A stretch of 64,000 nucleotides of DNA from Verrucomicrobiota bacterium. GTDB taxonomy: Bacteria; Verrucomicrobiota; Verrucomicrobiia; Limisphaerales; AAA164-E04. This document shows positions 55,497 through 60,676 of the stretch, one piece after another. The position numbers and the translations under genes are program-made. Within the stretch, counting starts at the first letter, position 1. Every line of letters begins with the position of its first letter. The stretch spans positions 2,880,001 to 2,944,000 of the forward strand of contig CP170459.1 in assembly GCA_047947115.1 (NCBI GenBank), in the 5' to 3' direction. The notes under the pieces are model-generated. The model searched no databases. It saw nothing but the letters and a program-made list of their open reading frames with translations, and was not told where the DNA came from.

Positions 55497-56108
55497 TCAG
55501 TCCTTTTTGATCGCTCTCATGGCCTTGACGAGATCGTCCAGGGGGGGGCGCTTGTTGATGTCGTGGATGTCGATCCATTGTATGATGCCTTTTTTATCGA
55601 TAAGAAAGAGGGCGCGTTCGGAGACTCCGCTTCTTCGAAGAATGCCATAGTTTCCTGCCACTTCTCCGTGGGGATAAAAGTCTGATAGCACTTCAAACCA
55701 CAACCCTCCCATTTCTTTTGTCCACGCATGCAGAGTGGGGATGTTGTCCACAGTGATGCCAATGAGGATGGTGTCTGTTTCATCGAAGTATTCTTTGGCT
55801 AAATGATACCCTGGCCACTGAGCCGAACAGACCGGGGTCCATGCCGCGGGAACGAACGAGAGGACAACATTCTTTTTTTCACGGTATTGGGAGAGGGTTG
55901 TTTTCCCACCCTTCAGGGAAGGAAGTGTGAAGTTGGGCGCGGGTGTGTGGATGGCGACTTTCAGCTTGCTGTCGGTCGGTTTCAGGATTCCTGGATCGTA
56001 AATATTGTCTTGGTTTACCTGGCCGGTGGCAAGATGGGGCAGACAAATGAAAAGCGTGCTGAGGCAAGCGAGCGGAATGAGGCGGTGGATGGTGGAGTTT
56101 TCGTTCAT
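55497..56108 (-). CDS. Exported AhpC/TSA family peroxiredoxin (AhpE-like)
   Basis: Signal peptide, APNFTL, PAAWTPVC (PxxxTxxC), SERALFLID. Confidence 0.88.
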   Translation of the reverse strand: MNENSTIHRLIPLACLSTLFICLPHLATGQVNQDNIYDPGILKPTDSKLKVAIHTPAPNFTLPSLKGGKTTLSQYREKKNVVLSFVPAAWTPVCSAQWPGYHLAKEYFDETDTILIGITVDNIPTLHAWTKEMGGLWFEVLSDFYPHGEVAGNYGILRRSGVSERALFLIDKKGIIQWIDIHDINKRPPLDDLVKAMRAIKKD

Positions 56109-56114
56109 GGCGGG

Positions 56115-56726
56115 TTATTCCATCTGTTGAGTGGTCAGCGACAAAACCAAACCGGTGAATAGGTCAACGTCTTCTTTTGAAAAGTAGCCGATTTTCTGTT
56201 GGATGATTTGATAATCCTTTCCGTCTTTTTTCAGGATCATGACATGTGGTGTGTGCGTCACCGGAATTGCCTGGGCGAACAAGGCCGAAGGGTCGGGAAG
56301 CAGGGGAAAGGCTACTTGGAGATTTCGTCGAAAAGTGTCTGTTTCCAGTGCGGTGTTTTCTTTACCTATCCCCATCATGCATACCCATGCATTGAATGGA
56401 GGCCCACTTAGATTGGAGTGCAGGATGTTCAGGTTTTCCGCCGATGATTGGCAGATGTGGCAGTAAAAATCAAAGACCTCCACGACGAGTATCCTGCAGT
56501 CCATCTGGTTGACTTGGAAGTGTGCTGCTTCCTTCAGGTGGGTCAAACCCAGTTGTGTTCGATCTGTCGGGTTGTCCGGCAGGGGAATGGGGATGTTACC
56601 AATGGGCACCGAGTTCAGTGAGTTCGGAATTTGGCTGGTCGGAGTGGTTTCGCATGCGGACAGCAGGAGGAGCATGGCTGTGCATGTCGATAGCAAACTT
56701 GCCGGTTTTTTGTTGATAACGGTCAT
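56115..56726 (-). CDS. Thioredoxin-fold CxxC lipoprotein (TlpA-like)
   Basis: Lipobox LSAC, VEVFDFYCHIC, FPLLPD, THTP (cis-Pro). Confidence 0.75.
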   Translation of the reverse strand: MTVINKKPASLLSTCTAMLLLLSACETTPTSQIPNSLNSVPIGNIPIPLPDNPTDRTQLGLTHLKEAAHFQVNQMDCRILVVEVFDFYCHICQSSAENLNILHSNLSGPPFNAWVCMMGIGKENTALETDTFRRNLQVAFPLLPDPSALFAQAIPVTHTPHVMILKKDGKDYQIIQQKIGYFSKEDVDLFTGLVLSLTTQQME

Positions 56727-56728
56727 GG

Positions 56729-58050
56729 CTAACTGATTGGGAGGAAGGTGCCTGTCCTTCCTCCCTGGAATGTTTCTTCCGCGTAGAATCTCCAATTTAA
56801 TGAGAAATCGAGCCCATTCTCACGGAGATCAGATGTCATGGTGGTTGGTCGTCCGAACAGAGCGGTGCCGGATTCCACGATTTCGTTTTCAAATGCATGC
56901 ATGTAAGCCAGGCTTGCTCCAAACTTCTGGGTGAATTGATAGGTCAACCCCAAGGTTAAATGATGCTCCACAACTGCCGGGAAACCTGTGATACGAAACG
57001 TTTCGTAGTAATAGTTGGGGATATTTTTTCCTTGGACATTTGTGAATCCGGGCGCCCAGTTGGAATGTTTTTTGAGAGGGCTTGCTCCGTAGTTGTATCC
57101 GGCGGACACGTAGCATTTGTCCCGAAGAACGGCGTAGCGGAATCCCAGTCCAACAGTCCATTGATCTTTCCAATCAAAGTCCGAGTAGCCGTCCGCATCG
57201 GACCAATTGATCCATCGGGTGTTGAGTTCCGCAATCAGTCGTCGATCCAGTAATTCAACGGCGACACCCAATCCAATATTGTTCGGAGATTGCAGCTTGA
57301 GGTCGTCCATGGCTCCATCCCCGTCGAAGTCGTTCACATCCTCGTGTTTGATGCCCTGTGGACTGATGTAGGATATTCCAAAGGTGACTCTGTCGGTTGC
57401 TTTGTAAACGAGCCCAGGCTGCATGCCGAAACCAAATCCGGAAGCCATGCCCATTCCCAGGTCGAGCATACCATAACTTGCCTGAAGGCCCAGCCCGACA
57501 GAGAGCTTCTGGTTCACCATGTATGCAATTGATGGTGAAAATTTCATCACCGACAGGTTGGTATATTTCCGGCAACCAGGGGGAAGGCTCCTCCGGGAGT
57601 CACGAAAGCGCCGGGGGCATCAACTGCTGTTCCCTTATAATTGACGCCCATCCCTGAAACGCCATAAGCGGCAAATCCAAAACGCCACTGCTGCGGGTTT
57701 TTGCTGAACGGAACGGAGATGCCGATGGCTGGAATGGGGTAAACGGTTGATTGGCTCTTGGCTGCGAAGGTGCCGTCAGGGTTTGTGATGCGTGTTTTGA
57801 TGGTTGGTATGAAGAGTGTGCCGGAAAAATTGACCTCCGAGGAGGGACAGAAGGATCCGTAGCACATGGAGGCCGGGTTTTGAAAAACGGCGCTGATGGC
57901 GTCCATGGGCAGGGCGATTCCGACCCCTCCCATGGATCTGGAAACGGGGCCGACAGCGATCAAGTTGTCCCCATTGGTAGCCGACAGAGAGGGTGCCAGC
58001 GCTGCCATGCCCGACGCAGCCAGGGCCATGATGTGTTGATAAAGTTTCAT
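56729..58050 (-). pseudogene. FadL/OmpP1/TodX-family outer-membrane channel, frameshifted
   Basis: Signal peptide plus ATNG...SRSMGG..A...D...NPA hatch motif in ORF 57547..58050, continued by barrel strands in ORF 56729..57550. One base is missing near 57570, and the terminal WRF is followed by TAC rather than a stop. Confidence 0.82.
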
Positions 58051-58165
58051 GATTTTCCTTTCTTGCTTTCAGGGTTGGTGCGTTCCAGTTTGTCACCTTC
58101 AATTTACCGTCCGGACTGGAACGCGTGTTAAATGTTCAGTGGTTTCATTCGAGGGATTCGAAGAT

Positions 58166-58663
58166 TCATGTGAAAATGATCTGGGCGTCATTGGAAATCT
58201 CGTAAAATTCACCTACTGTCAGCACTTTGTCCACTTCGGGACAAAAATCGTCCATACTCAGATTAAACATGTCCACGGTTGCTTTGCATGCATAGATGGT
58301 TCCACCGGCATCATGGATCATCTCGATGAATTCACTGACCGGAGGGATATCCAGTTTGTCCATTTCCTTTTTCATCATGGAGGTGGCAAAGGCTGACACA
58401 CCGGGGATGGCGCCCATCCAGGTGGGCATGGACATTCCCATGGGAGTTGGAAAGCACAGGGCTGGATTGCCGACAGTGGCGACTTTCAGGTGATCCATCT
58501 TTTTCTTCACGATGGCGTGCAGTCCGAAGAAAGTGAAAAAGAGGGATGCTTCAATCCCTTCCATGCGCGCGCCATTTGCCATGATCAATCCGGGGTACAC
58601 ATTTTCCAGTGAACCTTTGGATACGACGATGGACACTTTTTTCAATTTGGATGTTTCAGACAT
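58166..58663 (-). CDS. DsrE2/DrsE-like sulfurtransferase
   Basis: LFFTFFGL and IYACKATVDM with the conserved Cys. Confidence 0.88.
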   Translation of the reverse strand: MSETSKLKKVSIVVSKGSLENVYPGLIMANGARMEGIEASLFFTFFGLHAIVKKKMDHLKVATVGNPALCFPTPMGMSMPTWMGAIPGVSAFATSMMKKEMDKLDIPPVSEFIEMIHDAGGTIYACKATVDMFNLSMDDFCPEVDKVLTVGEFYEISNDAQIIFT

Positions 58664-58689
58664 AATGATTTCTCTTTCTCAATAGTTTG

Positions 58690-59004
58690 TTAAACGCAGC
58701 TTGCTGGTTTGGGGTAGCCGGAAATCATCGCTGCGGTTTTGATGGGTTTGTCCGGAAACAATTCGTAGAGCTCTTTGGTTGGGATGTTGCCAACTTTCTT
58801 GATGCGTCTGATGCCTGGAACGACTCCTTTTTCCTTGAAGTCGCGGTCAATGAAATCGATGACCTTCCAATGGGCATCCGTCAGTTCGATGTTCATTTCC
58901 CTGGCAAGGGCGGTTGCGATTTCCTTGTCCCACTGGGAGTGATCGGTCAGGTAACCTTCTTCATCGACGTTGATGGATTTTCCTAAGATATCTTTTGTTG
59001 CCAT
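58690..59004 (-). CDS. TusE/DsrC family sulfur relay protein
   Basis: VDEEGYL, LTDAHWKVI, LYELFP, C-terminal PKPASCV. Confidence 0.93.
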   Translation of the reverse strand: MATKDILGKSINVDEEGYLTDHSQWDKEIATALAREMNIELTDAHWKVIDFIDRDFKEKGVVPGIRRIKKVGNIPTKELYELFPDKPIKTAAMISGYPKPASCV

Positions 59005-59040
59005 ATTGTTTGTTCTTTCTTTGTTCAGAGTTCAAAAATG

Positions 59041-60303
59041 TTATGCTGCGTTGTGTTGATTGGTTTTGCTTGGGATTTCCTTTCCGAGCCGTGTCATGTG
59101 GGGGGAGATGCCAGGCATGGGACGTGCCGGGAGGAGGATGTTCCAGTAGACCCATCGGAAGGCCATTTTGCCGATGTGATTTAATCGGCTTTCCCTTAAC
59201 AATTTCATCGGGCCGATGCCGGGCAGGGGGAAGGTGCCGGGGACCGGTTCCTGTTCGTAATTGAAGTCCAGCAGGATGGCCTTGTTGTGGCCGGATTCCA
59301 CAAAGCAGTTGGCATGGCCGTCAAAGCGGGCGTTCAACGCTTCATCCTTCATGTAGGAGAGGATGTTTTGAGTGAGGATTTCCGCCTCGAAATGAGTAAC
59401 CGAGCCTGCCTTGGATGTGGGCAGATCGGTGGCATCGCCCAGCACAAAGATGTTGGAATGAGCTTTGGATTGCAGTGTGTGGGCGTCGGTTGGGATGAAA
59501 TTCAATTCATCCCCCAAACCGGAGCGATCCACCATGTCGGAACCCATGTTGGTGGGAACAGTGACCAGCAAATCGTAGTCCACGGATTCATCACCCCAGC
59601 TCAACACGCGTTTGGCATCATGGTCGACCCGGCTGATATTGAAATCCGTCACCACTCGAATGTTCTTATCCTCCAACATGTGCGAGAGCATCTTGGATGC
59701 GGTCGGTTTGGTGAATGCGCTGGATAGTGGGGTGACGTAGGTGATTTCGGTCCTGTTTCTGATGCCTCGTTGTCCCAACCACCAATCTGCAAGAAAGGCA
59801 AATTCCAGTGGAGCAACCGGGCACTTGATGGGCATCTCGGCGATGTGCACCACGAGTTTGCCTCCATTGAAATGCCTCATGGTTTCCGCAAGTTTGCTGG
59901 AGCCTTCGAAGGTGTAAAAATCATGCACGTTTTTACCCCATCCCGGTCCGGTGAGATCTTCCACCTCCTCGGGAGCAGGATGGCACCCTGTTGCAATAAT
60001 CAAAATGTCATAGTTCAGCTCACTGCCGTTTTGCAGCAGCACTTTGTTATGGTCTCCATTCACTCGGTCGATGCCTGCCTGAATGTATTGAACACCTTTG
60101 CCGACGAATTTTTTCTTCGGTTGGACCACATCCGATGGTTCATAAATCCCAAACGGGATGAAGAGAAAACCAGGTTGGTAATAATGATGGGGCTCCTCGT
60201 CCACGATGCTGATGGTCCACTGATTGAGATCGATTTGTTTCCTCAAATGATTGGCCATCATTGTGCCGGCTGTTCCGGCGCCTAAGATTAGAAGATTTTT
60301 CAT
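59041..60303 (-). CDS. sqr: Sulfide:quinone oxidoreductase (likely type III-like)
   Basis: ILGAGTAG, HYYQPG, IKCPVAPLEF, LGDA, SKAG, DGHANCF and an amphipathic C-terminus. Confidence 0.88.
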   Translation of the reverse strand: MKNLLILGAGTAGTMMANHLRKQIDLNQWTISIVDEEPHHYYQPGFLFIPFGIYEPSDVVQPKKKFVGKGVQYIQAGIDRVNGDHNKVLLQNGSELNYDILIIATGCHPAPEEVEDLTGPGWGKNVHDFYTFEGSSKLAETMRHFNGGKLVVHIAEMPIKCPVAPLEFAFLADWWLGQRGIRNRTEITYVTPLSSAFTKPTASKMLSHMLEDKNIRVVTDFNISRVDHDAKRVLSWGDESVDYDLLVTVPTNMGSDMVDRSGLGDELNFIPTDAHTLQSKAHSNIFVLGDATDLPTSKAGSVTHFEAEILTQNILSYMKDEALNARFDGHANCFVESGHNKAILLDFNYEQEPVPGTFPLPGIGPMKLLRESRLNHIGKMAFRWVYWNILLPARPMPGISPHMTRLGKEIPSKTNQHNAA

Positions 60304-60644
60304 AGCTCGGTTCCTTCCGGTTTTAAGTAAGACTTGCGTAAAAATTGGAGCATCTGACCGAAGCGCTCATCGGCAAGGCGATAGAAAACGAACTTATTTT
60401 CCTTCCTCTTGGCGATGACTCCGGCAAGGGACAGAATGCGCAGTTGCTGTGAGATGTTGGACAGTTTTGTCTCGCCTAGAATTTCAGCGATATCGTTCAC
60501 ACAGAATTCGTCCTGTGACAGGATGCACAAGATTCGGAATCTTGATTTGTTCGAAATCAATTGGAACAGATCAATGACTTTGGAGCAGACCACATTGTTT
60601 TGTTCGAACTCTCGTTTGATTTGCGTTCCAAGCGCGTTCATCAT
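60300..60644 (-). CDS. ArsR/SmtB family regulator (BigR/SqrR-like)
   Basis: RFRILC, SNISQQLRIL, VFYRL. Stop overlaps the sqr start. Confidence 0.9.
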   Translation of the reverse strand: MMNALGTQIKREFEQNNVVCSKVIDLFQLISNKSRFRILCILSQDEFCVNDIAEILGETKLSNISQQLRILSLAGVIAKRKENKFVFYRLADERFGQMLQFLRKSYLKPEGTEL

Positions 60645-60652
60645 GTGAAAAC

Positions 60653-60676
60653 TTTAATATTTGTTAAAATGTTAAA
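60653..60676. promoter_or_regulatory. Putative ArsR operator (10-4-10 inverted repeat)
   Basis: TTTAATATTT-GTTA-AAATGTTAAA with 9 of 10 arm positions complementary, 8 nt upstream of the ArsR ATG. Confidence 0.6.

What the first reader, a model, noticed from the sequence alone, without database searches (positions are those of the whole stretch)
55497..60676. Envelope-spanning sulfide/sulfane-sulfur operon: ArsR-SQR-TusE-DsrE2-FadL-CxxC lipoprotein-peroxiredoxin
Seen: seven co-oriented genes with gaps of -4 to about 115 nt behind a palindromic operator. Established: SQR oxidises sulfide to polysulfide/persulfide, DsrE and TusE/DsrC proteins carry persulfides, and FadL-family barrels pass hydrophobic molecules. 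No persulfide dioxygenase, rhodanese, dsrAB, sHdr or sox gene is in the window. Inference: a sulfide-inducible system linking a cytoplasmic persulfide relay to a periplasmic thiol-redox pair and an outer-membrane channel for hydrophobic S8 or organic polysulfides. The envelope arm, and its presence in an apparently heterotrophic PVC bacterium, are the potentially undescribed parts.
Basis: partly seen in the sequence, partly recalled or inferred. Interest (0 to 1): 0.85.

Follow-up and report, generated by a model that had tools for sequence, protein, structure and literature searches.

The report
Sulfide-detox operon with sulfur channel
An estuarine bacterium carries a seven-gene operon, repeated in the same order in other Verrucomicrobiota, that joins a likely sulfide-oxidising enzyme and two sulfur-carrier proteins to an outer-membrane channel (broken in this genome) and a periplasmic antioxidant pair, which together would move waste elemental sulfur across the cell envelope while protecting it.

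Summary
The seven genes are real and co-oriented. The same order (ArsR, type III SQR, TusE, DsrE2, FadL, CxxC lipoprotein, peroxiredoxin) recurs in 7 of 80 SQR loci, all Verrucomicrobiota, behind a shared palindrome.
- Channel: a FadL lies beside this SQR in 30 of 80 loci, from at least four FadL clades. The window's FadL clade sits with DsrE2 in 9 of 13 Desulfobacterota-phylum hits.
- Redox pair: the lipoprotein and AhpE-like 1-Cys peroxiredoxin are predicted to dock (0.86 against 0.15). They are a separate, common module of anaerobes, usually beside peroxide-defence genes, so they are recruited, not sulfur-specific by origin.
- Regulator: the ArsR lacks the second BigR/SqrR cysteine and has an invariant alpha-1 cysteine instead.
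- Damage: the window's FadL has two lesions, shared by one public population; two other runs carry the intact gene.
Best reading: persulfide-induced sulfide detoxification, with passive sulfur passage through FadL and periplasmic thiol protection. Direction, substrate, induction and co-transcription are untested. This scan already noted sqr-tusE-dsrE2-fadL and DsrE2-TusA-DsrMK-FadL on other DNA. The redox pair and the ArsR variant are the additions here.

The parts
60653..60668 (.). Predicted ArsR operator: a 16-bp imperfect palindrome of the form TTYAA-N6-TTRAA just upstream of the ArsR start; a wider imperfect palindrome runs to 60676
   Evidence: Shared motif in orthologous promoters, 99.6 against at most 76.5 in 20 shuffles. 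It is the second-best site in the genome, but the matrix included it. Binding is untested.
60300..60644 (-). ArsR/SmtB repressor with Cys20 (helix 1), Cys40 (helix 2) and Cys48; no helix-5 cysteine
   Evidence: PF01022; BigR model 48 bits against a cut-off of 155. Best PDB sequence hits are BigR, HlyU and another ArsR-family regulator. C20 and C40 in 120 of 120 top homologues, C48 in 117 of 120.
59041..60303 (-). Type III sulfide:quinone oxidoreductase of the selenoprotein subtype, in its Cys form (Cys161, Cys333); no signal peptide evident
   Evidence: NF049943 631 bits against 525. Best solved relative is human SQOR, E 8e-45, with both catalytic cysteines aligned. TGA at the Cys333 position in L042, L043, L044, L046.
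58690..59004 (-). TusE-type sulfur carrier (DsrC fold) with only the penultimate Cys103
   Evidence: PF04358 and TIGR03342; single cysteine. No second cysteine 11 residues earlier in the homologue tails printed.
58166..58663 (-). DsrE2-like sulfur carrier (Cys126 in the ACK motif)
   Evidence: PF13686 at 106 bits; NF047629 at 117, below its cut-off of 210. An AC motif in 49 of 66 homologues.
56783..58050 (-). FadL/TodX-type outer-membrane channel, a pseudogene in this genome (frameshift near 57565, stop codon lost at 56783-56785). Signal peptide, NPA motif, and a CxxxxC pair right after NPA.
   Evidence: PF03349. The intact orthologue L001 folds as a FadL barrel: pLDDT 73, best match E. coli FadL, E 3e-22, TM 0.67. 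NP and both Cys in 120 of 120 top homologues. Lesions.
56739..56765 (-). 10-bp GC-rich hairpin between fadL and the lipoprotein gene with no U tract; possibly an mRNA-stabilising or processing element
   Evidence: Folding z -3.1; a like hairpin in L001 has z -4.1. Role inferred.
56115..56726 (-). TlpA/ResA-like thioredoxin-fold lipoprotein (lipobox LSAC at Cys25; active-site CHIC, Cys89/Cys92)
   Evidence: Profile hits ResA structures, E 5.5e-10. C89 and C92 invariant in 59 rows.
55497..56108 (-). Exported AhpE-like 1-Cys peroxiredoxin (PxxxTxxC with Cys94, Arg165, hydrophobic N-terminal signal)
   Evidence: Best PDB hit is M. tuberculosis AhpE (Rv2238c), E 4e-29. C94 is the only invariant cysteine in 59 rows. 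Predicted complex with the lipoprotein.

Best explanation
This is a conserved seven-gene operon that likely detoxifies sulfide: its ArsR would release the operon when persulfides build up, the SQR would oxidise sulfide and pass the sulfur to TusE and DsrE2, the FadL channel would let the resulting zero-valent sulfur cross the outer membrane, and the lipoprotein is predicted to re-reduce the periplasmic peroxiredoxin that would protect the envelope. Shown here: gene identities, catalytic cysteines, conserved order, the shared palindrome, the repeated FadL-DsrE2 and FadL-SQR neighbourhood, and the breakage of FadL in this genome. From established biochemistry: SQR couples sulfide to quinone; TusE and DsrE carry persulfide; FadL barrels pass hydrophobic solutes; a TlpA feeds a periplasmic peroxiredoxin with electrons from a DsbD-family protein. 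Inferred: the inducer, direct SQR-to-TusE transfer, S8 or polysulfide as the channel's substrate, net outward flow under oxic conditions, and the peroxiredoxin's substrate (peroxide from polysulfide autoxidation, or polysulfide itself). In this genome the channel step is lost, leaving the core and the redox pair.
For: Seven-gene order in L001, L002, L003, L005, L007, L015, L041 of 80 SQR loci. Lipoprotein and peroxiredoxin follow in 7 of the 8 other genomes whose FadL falls in the window-type clade; L179 lacks them. A FadL lies within 4.5 kb of SQR in 30 of 80 loci, 24 of the 51 with long flanks, from at least four clades. In an evenly drawn phylum sample it is adjacent in 7 of the 8 non-self genomes above the NF049943 cut-off. 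The FadL subfamily has DsrE2 in the same gene run in 9 of 13 Desulfobacterota-phylum hits and 3 of 6 Verrucomicrobiota-phylum hits. No persulfide dioxygenase, SoxY or YeeE was found in the genome, so SQR product has no evident onward route; three heme-copper oxidase subunits and a DsbD-domain protein are present. A related SQR-TusA-DsrE2 operon rises 1.7-fold in sulfide, and that organism deposits S0 (PMC10205796 passages). Complex model: score 0.86, best of 3 controls 0.15; the mark was reached by 116 of 157 solved and 2 of 215 mismatched pairs (counts hold only roughly with my own alignments); runs agree in at least 97% of contacts; partner pLDDT at least 90; lipoprotein residues 86-93, including Cys89, touch peroxiredoxin residues 96-106 next to Cys94. 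The pass may come from likeness to solved thioredoxin-peroxiredoxin pairs. The persulfide-sensing cavity of SqrR is lined by helices 2, 5 and 1' (bioRxiv 2020.03.22.001966 passages), which fits an invariant helix-1 cysteine replacing the helix-5 one. dN/dS against L001 is 0.02-0.12 for all seven genes, including both FadL halves (synonymous sites near saturation).
Against: The lipoprotein-peroxiredoxin pair is mostly unlinked to sulfur genes. sqr or fadL lay in 2 of 80 peroxiredoxin loci (23 had more than 3.6 kb upstream); neighbours in 24 loci read include Fur, rubrerythrin, a Tpx-like redoxin and cytochrome c3. In the 6 Desulfobacterota-phylum genomes with both the FadL and the peroxiredoxin, they are on different contigs. 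Characterised FadL-family channels serve uptake (recalled), and the sister contexts (DsrMK-like reductase; sulfhydrylase-ThiS-MoeB) point inward. Three of 6 Verrucomicrobiota FadL hits stand alone, and 27 of 51 well-flanked SQR loci have no FadL hit. The SQR-TusA-DsrE2 loci L250 and L251 have none, and their SQR is only 32% identical. FadL is broken here, and public populations show further lesions, so the envelope arm is dispensable in some settings. No activity has been shown for this SQR subfamily in the papers I read. Neighbourhood counts come from related genomes and are not independent; no matched control set of unrelated FadL genes with long flanks was scored.
Confidence: 0.5

Rival explanations
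1. The operon takes zero-valent sulfur in and reduces it. FadL admits S8, the lipoprotein-peroxiredoxin pair opens it to persulfide or H2S in the periplasm, and SQR with TusE/DsrE2 runs in reverse as an electron sink when the sediment or water turns anoxic.
For: The closest FadL relatives end MarR-DsrE2-TusA-NarI-like-DsrK-like operons. L193 places FadL before DsrE2, TusA, a sulfhydrylase, ThiS, MoeB and JAB. L237 places it behind sulfhydrogenase-like and SudAB-like genes. A cyanobacterial peroxiredoxin reduces S8 to H2S (PMC9426444 section 6). SolV makes H2S from stored sulfur without oxygen. No YeeE was found, so a reduction step in the periplasm would explain entry.
Against: No cytoplasmic sink (Dsr, Sox, dioxygenase) was found. 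The genome encodes three heme-copper oxidase subunits, as expected of an aerobe or microaerophile. Only 1 of 6 peroxiredoxins reduced S8 in that paper, and it was a 2-Cys enzyme.
Confidence: 0.25
2. The core four genes are an ordinary SQR cassette. The lipoprotein-peroxiredoxin pair is a plain periplasmic peroxide scavenger that came along once and may be transcribed on its own, and FadL passes some other hydrophobic solute.
For: The pair is common on its own: the peroxiredoxin is in 67 of 301 Desulfobacterota-phylum genomes, with the lipoprotein directly upstream in 67 of 80 loci, often beside Fur and rubrerythrin. Seven of the 8 operon peroxiredoxins form one weakly supported group, so the linkage may be one event. 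A TlpA-peroxiredoxin peroxide pathway is published (PMC3322552 passages).
Against: The order has survived while FadL drifted to about 46% and the lipoprotein to about 25% identity. In Verrucomicrobiota the peroxiredoxin was found only in this operon (1 of 400 other genomes). The FadL-DsrE2 link recurs with different oxidoreductases, which argues against an unrelated solute.
Confidence: 0.17
3. The SQR-like protein is not a sulfide oxidase but a carrier-persulfide (or selenium) oxidoreductase that recycles TusE/DsrE2, so the operon buffers cellular sulfane sulfur without consuming external sulfide.
For: The enzyme resembles the acceptor-dependent human SQOR far more than type I, IV or V structures (E 8e-45 against 1e-11 to 1e-14). 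It nearly always travels with TusE (69 of 80 loci) and DsrE2 (66 of 80). The subfamily has selenocysteine members.
Against: Both catalytic cysteines of SQR are kept. Type III SQRs are reported to couple sulfide to quinone (cited in PMC10205796). An outer-membrane channel would have no clear role.
Confidence: 0.08

Closest known systems
Methylacidiphilum fumariolicum SolV operon MFUM_v2_0219-0221 (type III SQR, TusA homologue, DsrE2; PMC10205796 and bioRxiv 2022.08.31.505896, passages read)
   Same: Verrucomicrobial type III SQR in one operon with a small sulfur carrier and DsrE2; induced by sulfide; product S0.
   Different: TusE (DsrC fold) here instead of TusA. The SQR-TusA-DsrE2 loci I read (L250, L251) have an SQR 32% identical, below the NF049943 cut-off, and no ArsR, FadL, lipoprotein or peroxiredoxin hit within about 7 kb.
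FadL / TodX / TbuX / CymD outer-membrane channels (PF03349)
   Same: FadL-type barrel fold, NPA motif, terminal aromatic residue in intact alleles.
   Different: About 16% identity to solved members; an invariant CxxxxC pair after NPA; sulfur-carrier genes as neighbours instead of fatty-acid or aromatic catabolism.
ScsB-TlpA-PprX periplasmic peroxide pathway of Caulobacter (PMC3322552, passages read) and M. tuberculosis AhpE
   Same: An exported peroxiredoxin reduced by a TlpA-like protein, fed by a DsbD-family transporter. 1-Cys AhpE-like active site; AhpE sulfenic acid reacts with sulfide at about 1.4e3 per M per s (PMC12697902 passages).
   Different: PprX is PrxQ-type with a resolving cysteine. 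Here it is a 1-Cys AhpE-like enzyme encoded directly behind its reductase and inside a sulfur operon.
SqrR / BigR / HlyU persulfide-sensing ArsR repressors
   Same: Nearest solved relatives; helix-2 cysteine kept; position at the head of an sqr operon.
   Different: The helix-5 cysteine is absent (Leu in 91 of 120 homologues) and the BigR model is far below its cut-off; invariant helix-1 Cys20 and near-invariant Cys48 instead.
SQR-persulfide dioxygenase-rhodanese sulfide oxidation of heterotrophs (PMC5702731, passages read)
   Same: Sulfide oxidation by SQR in heterotrophs; strains with only SQR stop at polysulfide, which can pass between cells.
   Different: No dioxygenase found in this genome; protein carriers and an envelope arm take its place in the operon.

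Membership tests
Type III SQR, selenoprotein subtype (NF049943) | Score above the curated cut-off | tested here: met
   631 against 525
Type III SQR, selenoprotein subtype (NF049943) | Two catalytic cysteines, the second in HxxC/U | tested here: met
   Cys161 and Cys333; KCP(V/I)AP in 78 of 80 and GH(A/S)NC in 73 of 80 loci, TGA at that place in 4; HxxU listed in PMC13188914
Type III SQR, selenoprotein subtype (NF049943) | Sulfide:quinone activity | not testable with these tools
   Needs an enzyme assay
DsrC (dissimilatory) | C-terminal CX10C pair and dsrAB in the genome (criterion recalled) | tested here: not met
   Only Cys103; NIR_SIR hits fall in two ORFs of 560-605 aa. Filed as TusE-type.
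DsrE2 (NF047629 equivalog) | Score above the cut-off of 210 | tested here: not met
   117 bits; PF13686 met. Called DsrE2-like.
FadL/TodX channels (PF03349) | Pfam match, barrel fold and NPA motif | tested here: met
   51.8 against 29.7 on the C-terminal half; fold of intact L001; NP in 120 of 120. The N-terminal hatch was modelled with pLDDT below 50.
FadL/TodX channels (PF03349) | Intact frame ending in an aromatic residue in this genome | tested here: not met
   Frameshift and lost stop
BigR/SqrR persulfide sensors | Cysteine pair in helices 2 and 5 | tested here: not met
   Helix-2 Cys present, helix-5 Cys absent; NF040642 48 against 155
BigR/SqrR persulfide sensors | Release from DNA on persulfide cross-linking | not testable with these tools
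   Needs binding assays and mass spectrometry; the C20-C40 distance was not measured
AhpE-type 1-Cys peroxiredoxin | PxxxTxxC, catalytic Arg, no resolving Cys, nearest to AhpE | tested here: met
   No curated AhpE model was scored.
TlpA/ResA periplasmic reductases | Thioredoxin fold, CxxC, export signal | tested here: met
   lipobox read from the sequence. NF002854 is far below its cut-off (19.7 against 170), so a divergent member.
SQR-PDO heterotrophic sulfide oxidation | Persulfide dioxygenase in the operon or genome | tested here: not met
   Not found with PF00753 review, NF040641, a recalled motif, or a PDO-like query from L062; genome 96% complete

The most novel reading that the evidence does not exclude
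The operon is a complete envelope-spanning line for zero-valent sulfur. A cysteine-bearing FadL subfamily is the outer-membrane S8/polysulfide channel. A dedicated lipoprotein-AhpE complex converts between S8 and persulfide or H2S in the periplasm, so that no inner-membrane transporter is needed. SQR exchanges sulfur directly with TusE. All of it answers to a new persulfide sensor whose dithiol bridges helix 1 of one subunit and helix 2 of the other.
Probability: 0.2. Interest if true: 0.85.

Novelty: new variant of a known kind. Interest (0 to 1): 0.6.

Why it matters
How insoluble zero-valent sulfur crosses the Gram-negative outer membrane is an open question (my background knowledge). A FadL subfamily that keeps DsrE2 as its neighbour while the oxidoreductase changes gives a concrete, testable candidate. 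This operon adds three things. The first is the periplasmic partners. The second is a natural comparison, since intact and broken channel alleles occur in public estuary and marsh populations of the same organism. The third is an ArsR with a new cysteine layout. It would also place presumably heterotrophic estuarine Verrucomicrobiota among the cells that turn sulfide into shared elemental sulfur.

Tried and rejected
Assembly error as the cause of the FadL break: rejected. An X3 contig spans 56273-58144 with no gap and keeps the window's base at 56783. X2 and X5 show the extra base and the stop; X1 shows the stop but its listed contig ends at 57567.

Co-transcription from RNA runs: inconclusive. 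One X16 contig covers 58058-59003 (tusE, dsrE2 and most of the gap to fadL), and short contigs lie on fadL and the lipoprotein. None of the listed contigs bridges the distal genes, 38 pieces were not shown, and DNA carry-over is not excluded.

Recent horizontal transfer: no compositional sign. GC is 0.45-0.52 and GC3 0.56-0.63, against 0.58-0.61 for two flanking genes. The distribution is patchy (strong SQR in 5 of 60 relatives, 1 of 7 same-genus), but four same-genus genomes show a rearranged site, not a clean empty one, so gain and loss cannot be told apart. The FadL tree is the quick tree; the careful search did not finish, and I ran no one-clade test, so no donor is claimed.

Sigma-70 promoter and terminator scan: no excess over shuffles.

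Hairpin between dsrE2 and fadL: z -1.6, and the L001 region folds no better than its shuffles; dropped.

FadL-lipoprotein-peroxiredoxin as a ready-made block in Desulfobacterota: not seen in 13 FadL loci or 80 peroxiredoxin loci.

Plasmid collection: only distant FadL hits, about 23-27% among the 15 of 26 listed.

Literature: none of the 14 papers listed for the FadL-plus-sulfur search contained FadL; none of the 10 listed joined FadL with DsrE2; OmpP1 with sulfur oxidation gave 0; a recalled Chlorobaculum locus tag gave 0. Most subscription journals are not in the library, and I read no supplements, where gene tables might list these clusters.

Full report
Seven minus-strand genes run from 60644 to 55497 with short gaps. 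Family scans name them ArsR, type III SQR of the selenoprotein subtype (NF049943, 631 bits against a cut-off of 525), TusE/DsrC, DsrE2-like, FadL, a ResA-like CxxC protein and an AhpC/TSA peroxiredoxin. The closest relative, L001, is titled Verrucomicrobiota and shares the flanks. The genome is one 6.08-Mb contig, 96% complete. The four DNA runs laid on it come from estuary, marsh and unlabelled metagenomes.

The order is conserved. All seven genes occur in the same order in 7 of 80 SQR loci: L001, L002, L003, L005, L007, L015 and L041, with titles spanning Verrucomicrobiales, Luteolibacter, Puniceicoccaceae and Opitutaceae. L179 has the first five genes only. TusE accompanies this SQR in 69 and DsrE2 in 66 of the 80 loci. 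A FadL profile finds a channel within 4.5 kb of SQR in 30 of 80 loci, or 24 of the 51 with long flanks, from at least four separate clades (quick tree). In an evenly drawn sample of 400 other genomes of the phylum, 8 pass the NF049943 cut-off and 7 of these have FadL adjacent; five of them belong to one family, so they are not independent. The operon is rare and patchy: a strong SQR match in 5 of 60 relatives and 1 of 7 same-genus genomes.

The channel follows DsrE2, not SQR. The window's FadL subfamily was found in 13 of 301 genomes from the phylum of G461 (the genome holding L044, titled Desulfopila). DsrE2 lies in the same gene run in 9 of the 13. Most of these read MarR-DsrE2-TusA-NarI-like-DsrK-like-FadL. 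One more begins in the tail of a cysteine-rich gene of that kind, two are cut by contig starts, and one sits behind sulfhydrogenase-like and SudAB-like genes. Among 6 Verrucomicrobiota-phylum hits, 3 have DsrE2 (one in a sulfhydrylase-ThiS-MoeB-JAB operon, L193) and 3 stand alone. The intact orthologue folds as a FadL barrel, and a CxxxxC pair after the NPA motif is present in 120 of 120 top homologues (the profile was built from sequences that have it). I scored no matched control set of unrelated FadL genes.

The redox pair is a recruited module. The peroxiredoxin is closest to M. tuberculosis AhpE, has one invariant cysteine and a hydrophobic N-terminus. The lipoprotein gene lies directly upstream in 67 of 80 metagenome loci. 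A structure model docks the lipoprotein's Cys89 region on the helix after the peroxidatic Cys94. It scored 0.86 against a best control of 0.15; the mark was reached by 116 of 157 solved and 2 of 215 mismatched pairs, counts that hold only roughly here; the runs agreed in at least 97% of contacts and partner pLDDT was at least 90. The pass may reflect likeness to solved complexes and does not show binding. In 24 loci whose neighbours I scanned (150 of 153 ORFs picked), the pair sits beside Fur, rubrerythrin, a Tpx-like redoxin, cytochrome c3 or housekeeping genes. The peroxiredoxin is in 67 of 301 genomes of the G461 phylum, on other contigs than FadL in the 6 genomes with both. In Verrucomicrobiota it was found in 1 of 400 other genomes, inside this operon. 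A TlpA-fed periplasmic peroxiredoxin is published for Caulobacter (PMC3322552, passages). A peroxiredoxin that reduces S8 is published for Synechococcus, 1 of 6 tested (PMC9426444, abstract and one results section). AhpE reacts with sulfide slowly (PMC12697902, passages). The genome has a DsbD-domain protein to supply electrons.

The regulator is a variant. Its nearest solved relatives are BigR and HlyU, but the helix-5 cysteine is missing and the BigR model is far below cut-off. Cys20 and Cys40 are present in 120 of 120 top homologues and Cys48 in 117. In SqrR the sensing cavity is formed by helices 2, 5 and 1' (bioRxiv 2020.03.22.001966, passages), so a Cys20'-Cys40 pair across subunits is a reasonable but unmeasured inference. 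A TTYAA-N6-TTRAA palindrome lies before the ArsR start in orthologous operons and scores 99.6 against at most 76.5 in 20 shuffles (the shuffles keep composition, not promoter structure).

The core points to oxidation with a protein acceptor. The SQR keeps both catalytic cysteines and is closest to human SQOR among solved structures. Four Desulfobacterota loci have TGA at the second cysteine, matching the published HxxU motif. TusE has only the terminal cysteine. No persulfide dioxygenase, SoxY, YeeE or bd oxidase was found, while three heme-copper oxidase subunits were. The published SolV operon (SQR, TusA homologue, DsrE2) rises 1.7-fold in sulfide, yields S0, and that organism also releases H2S from sulfur without oxygen (PMC10205796 and its preprint, passages). 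Heterotrophs with only SQR stop at polysulfide that can pass between cells (PMC5702731, passages). I also read passages of PMC13047784 (type III cysteines) and PMC8528874 (YTD clusters).

In this genome the channel is broken. One base is missing near 57565 relative to L001 and the stop codon is lost. Runs X2 and X5 have the intact form at both places, and an RNA contig of X15 has the extra base. X3 matches the window at both, so the broken allele exists in nature. X3 and X1 also show a 411-base deletion in the peroxiredoxin gene; X3 shows a one-base loss early in dsrE2 and a low-depth joint across fadL. dN/dS against L001 is 0.02-0.12 for every gene, including both FadL halves, so the damage is recent.

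Verdict. The best reading (0.5) is persulfide-induced sulfide detoxification, with FadL as a passive route for zero-valent sulfur and the redox pair guarding the periplasm. Uptake and reduction (0.25), a hitch-hiking peroxide module (0.17) and a non-oxidising carrier reductase (0.08) remain. Every part belongs to a known family and the core is in print. I found no paper joining FadL to these sulfur genes, within an open-access library and without supplements. Earlier notes of this scan already describe sqr-tusE-dsrE2-fadL and the DsrE2-TusA-DsrMK-FadL operon on other DNA; these are unchecked notes and not support. None was returned for the peroxiredoxin pair or for this stretch. Class: new variant of a known kind; interest 0.6.

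Noticed in passing
window:55558-55970, 58637, 56352-58067 (runs X1, X3): Public populations carry further lesions: a 411-base deletion inside the peroxiredoxin gene (X1, X3), a one-base loss near the start of dsrE2 (X3) and a low-depth joint skipping fadL (X3). This suggests the operon is decaying in some strains.
   Followed up: partly
L229, L231, L233, L234, L236, L241: MarR-DsrE2-TusA-NarI-like-DsrK-like-FadL operon in Desulfobacterota-phylum genomes; the DsrK-like protein scores 261, below the DsrK cut-off of 400.
   Followed up: partly
L193:7553-12228: FadL followed by DsrE2, a TusA-like protein, an O-acetylhomoserine sulfhydrylase-like enzyme, a ThiS-like protein, MoeB and JAB: a candidate route for assimilating zero-valent sulfur.
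   Followed up: partly
L237:7612-13426: FadL behind sulfhydrogenase beta/gamma-like and SudB/SudA-like genes, without DsrE2.
   Followed up: no
L042, L043, L044, L046: In-frame TGA at the second catalytic cysteine of the SQR, consistent with selenocysteine.
   Followed up: yes
L041:11234-11929; a similar gap of about 700 bases in many of L016-L040: An extra 231-aa gene between sqr and tusE in L041 with no NCBIfam match; absent from the window.
   Followed up: no
G000:C1:4222329 and 1368933: Two other strong matches to the predicted operator elsewhere in the genome; possible regulon members.
   Followed up: no
G528, G490, G480: Distant relatives of the peroxiredoxin with one in-frame TGA; possible selenocysteine forms.
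   Followed up: no
L192:12335-13762: Thoeris ThsB and ThsA defence genes near a stand-alone FadL.
   Followed up: no
window:53449-55380: A membrane protein, a winged-helix regulator and ispH form a conserved block in the genus, co-oriented behind the operon; a second ispH-like gene lies at G000:C1:3352796.
   Followed up: partly
L198 (G000:C1:1859065): tRNA 2-selenouridine synthase MnmH above cut-off, so the genome uses selenium although its SQR has cysteine.
   Followed up: no
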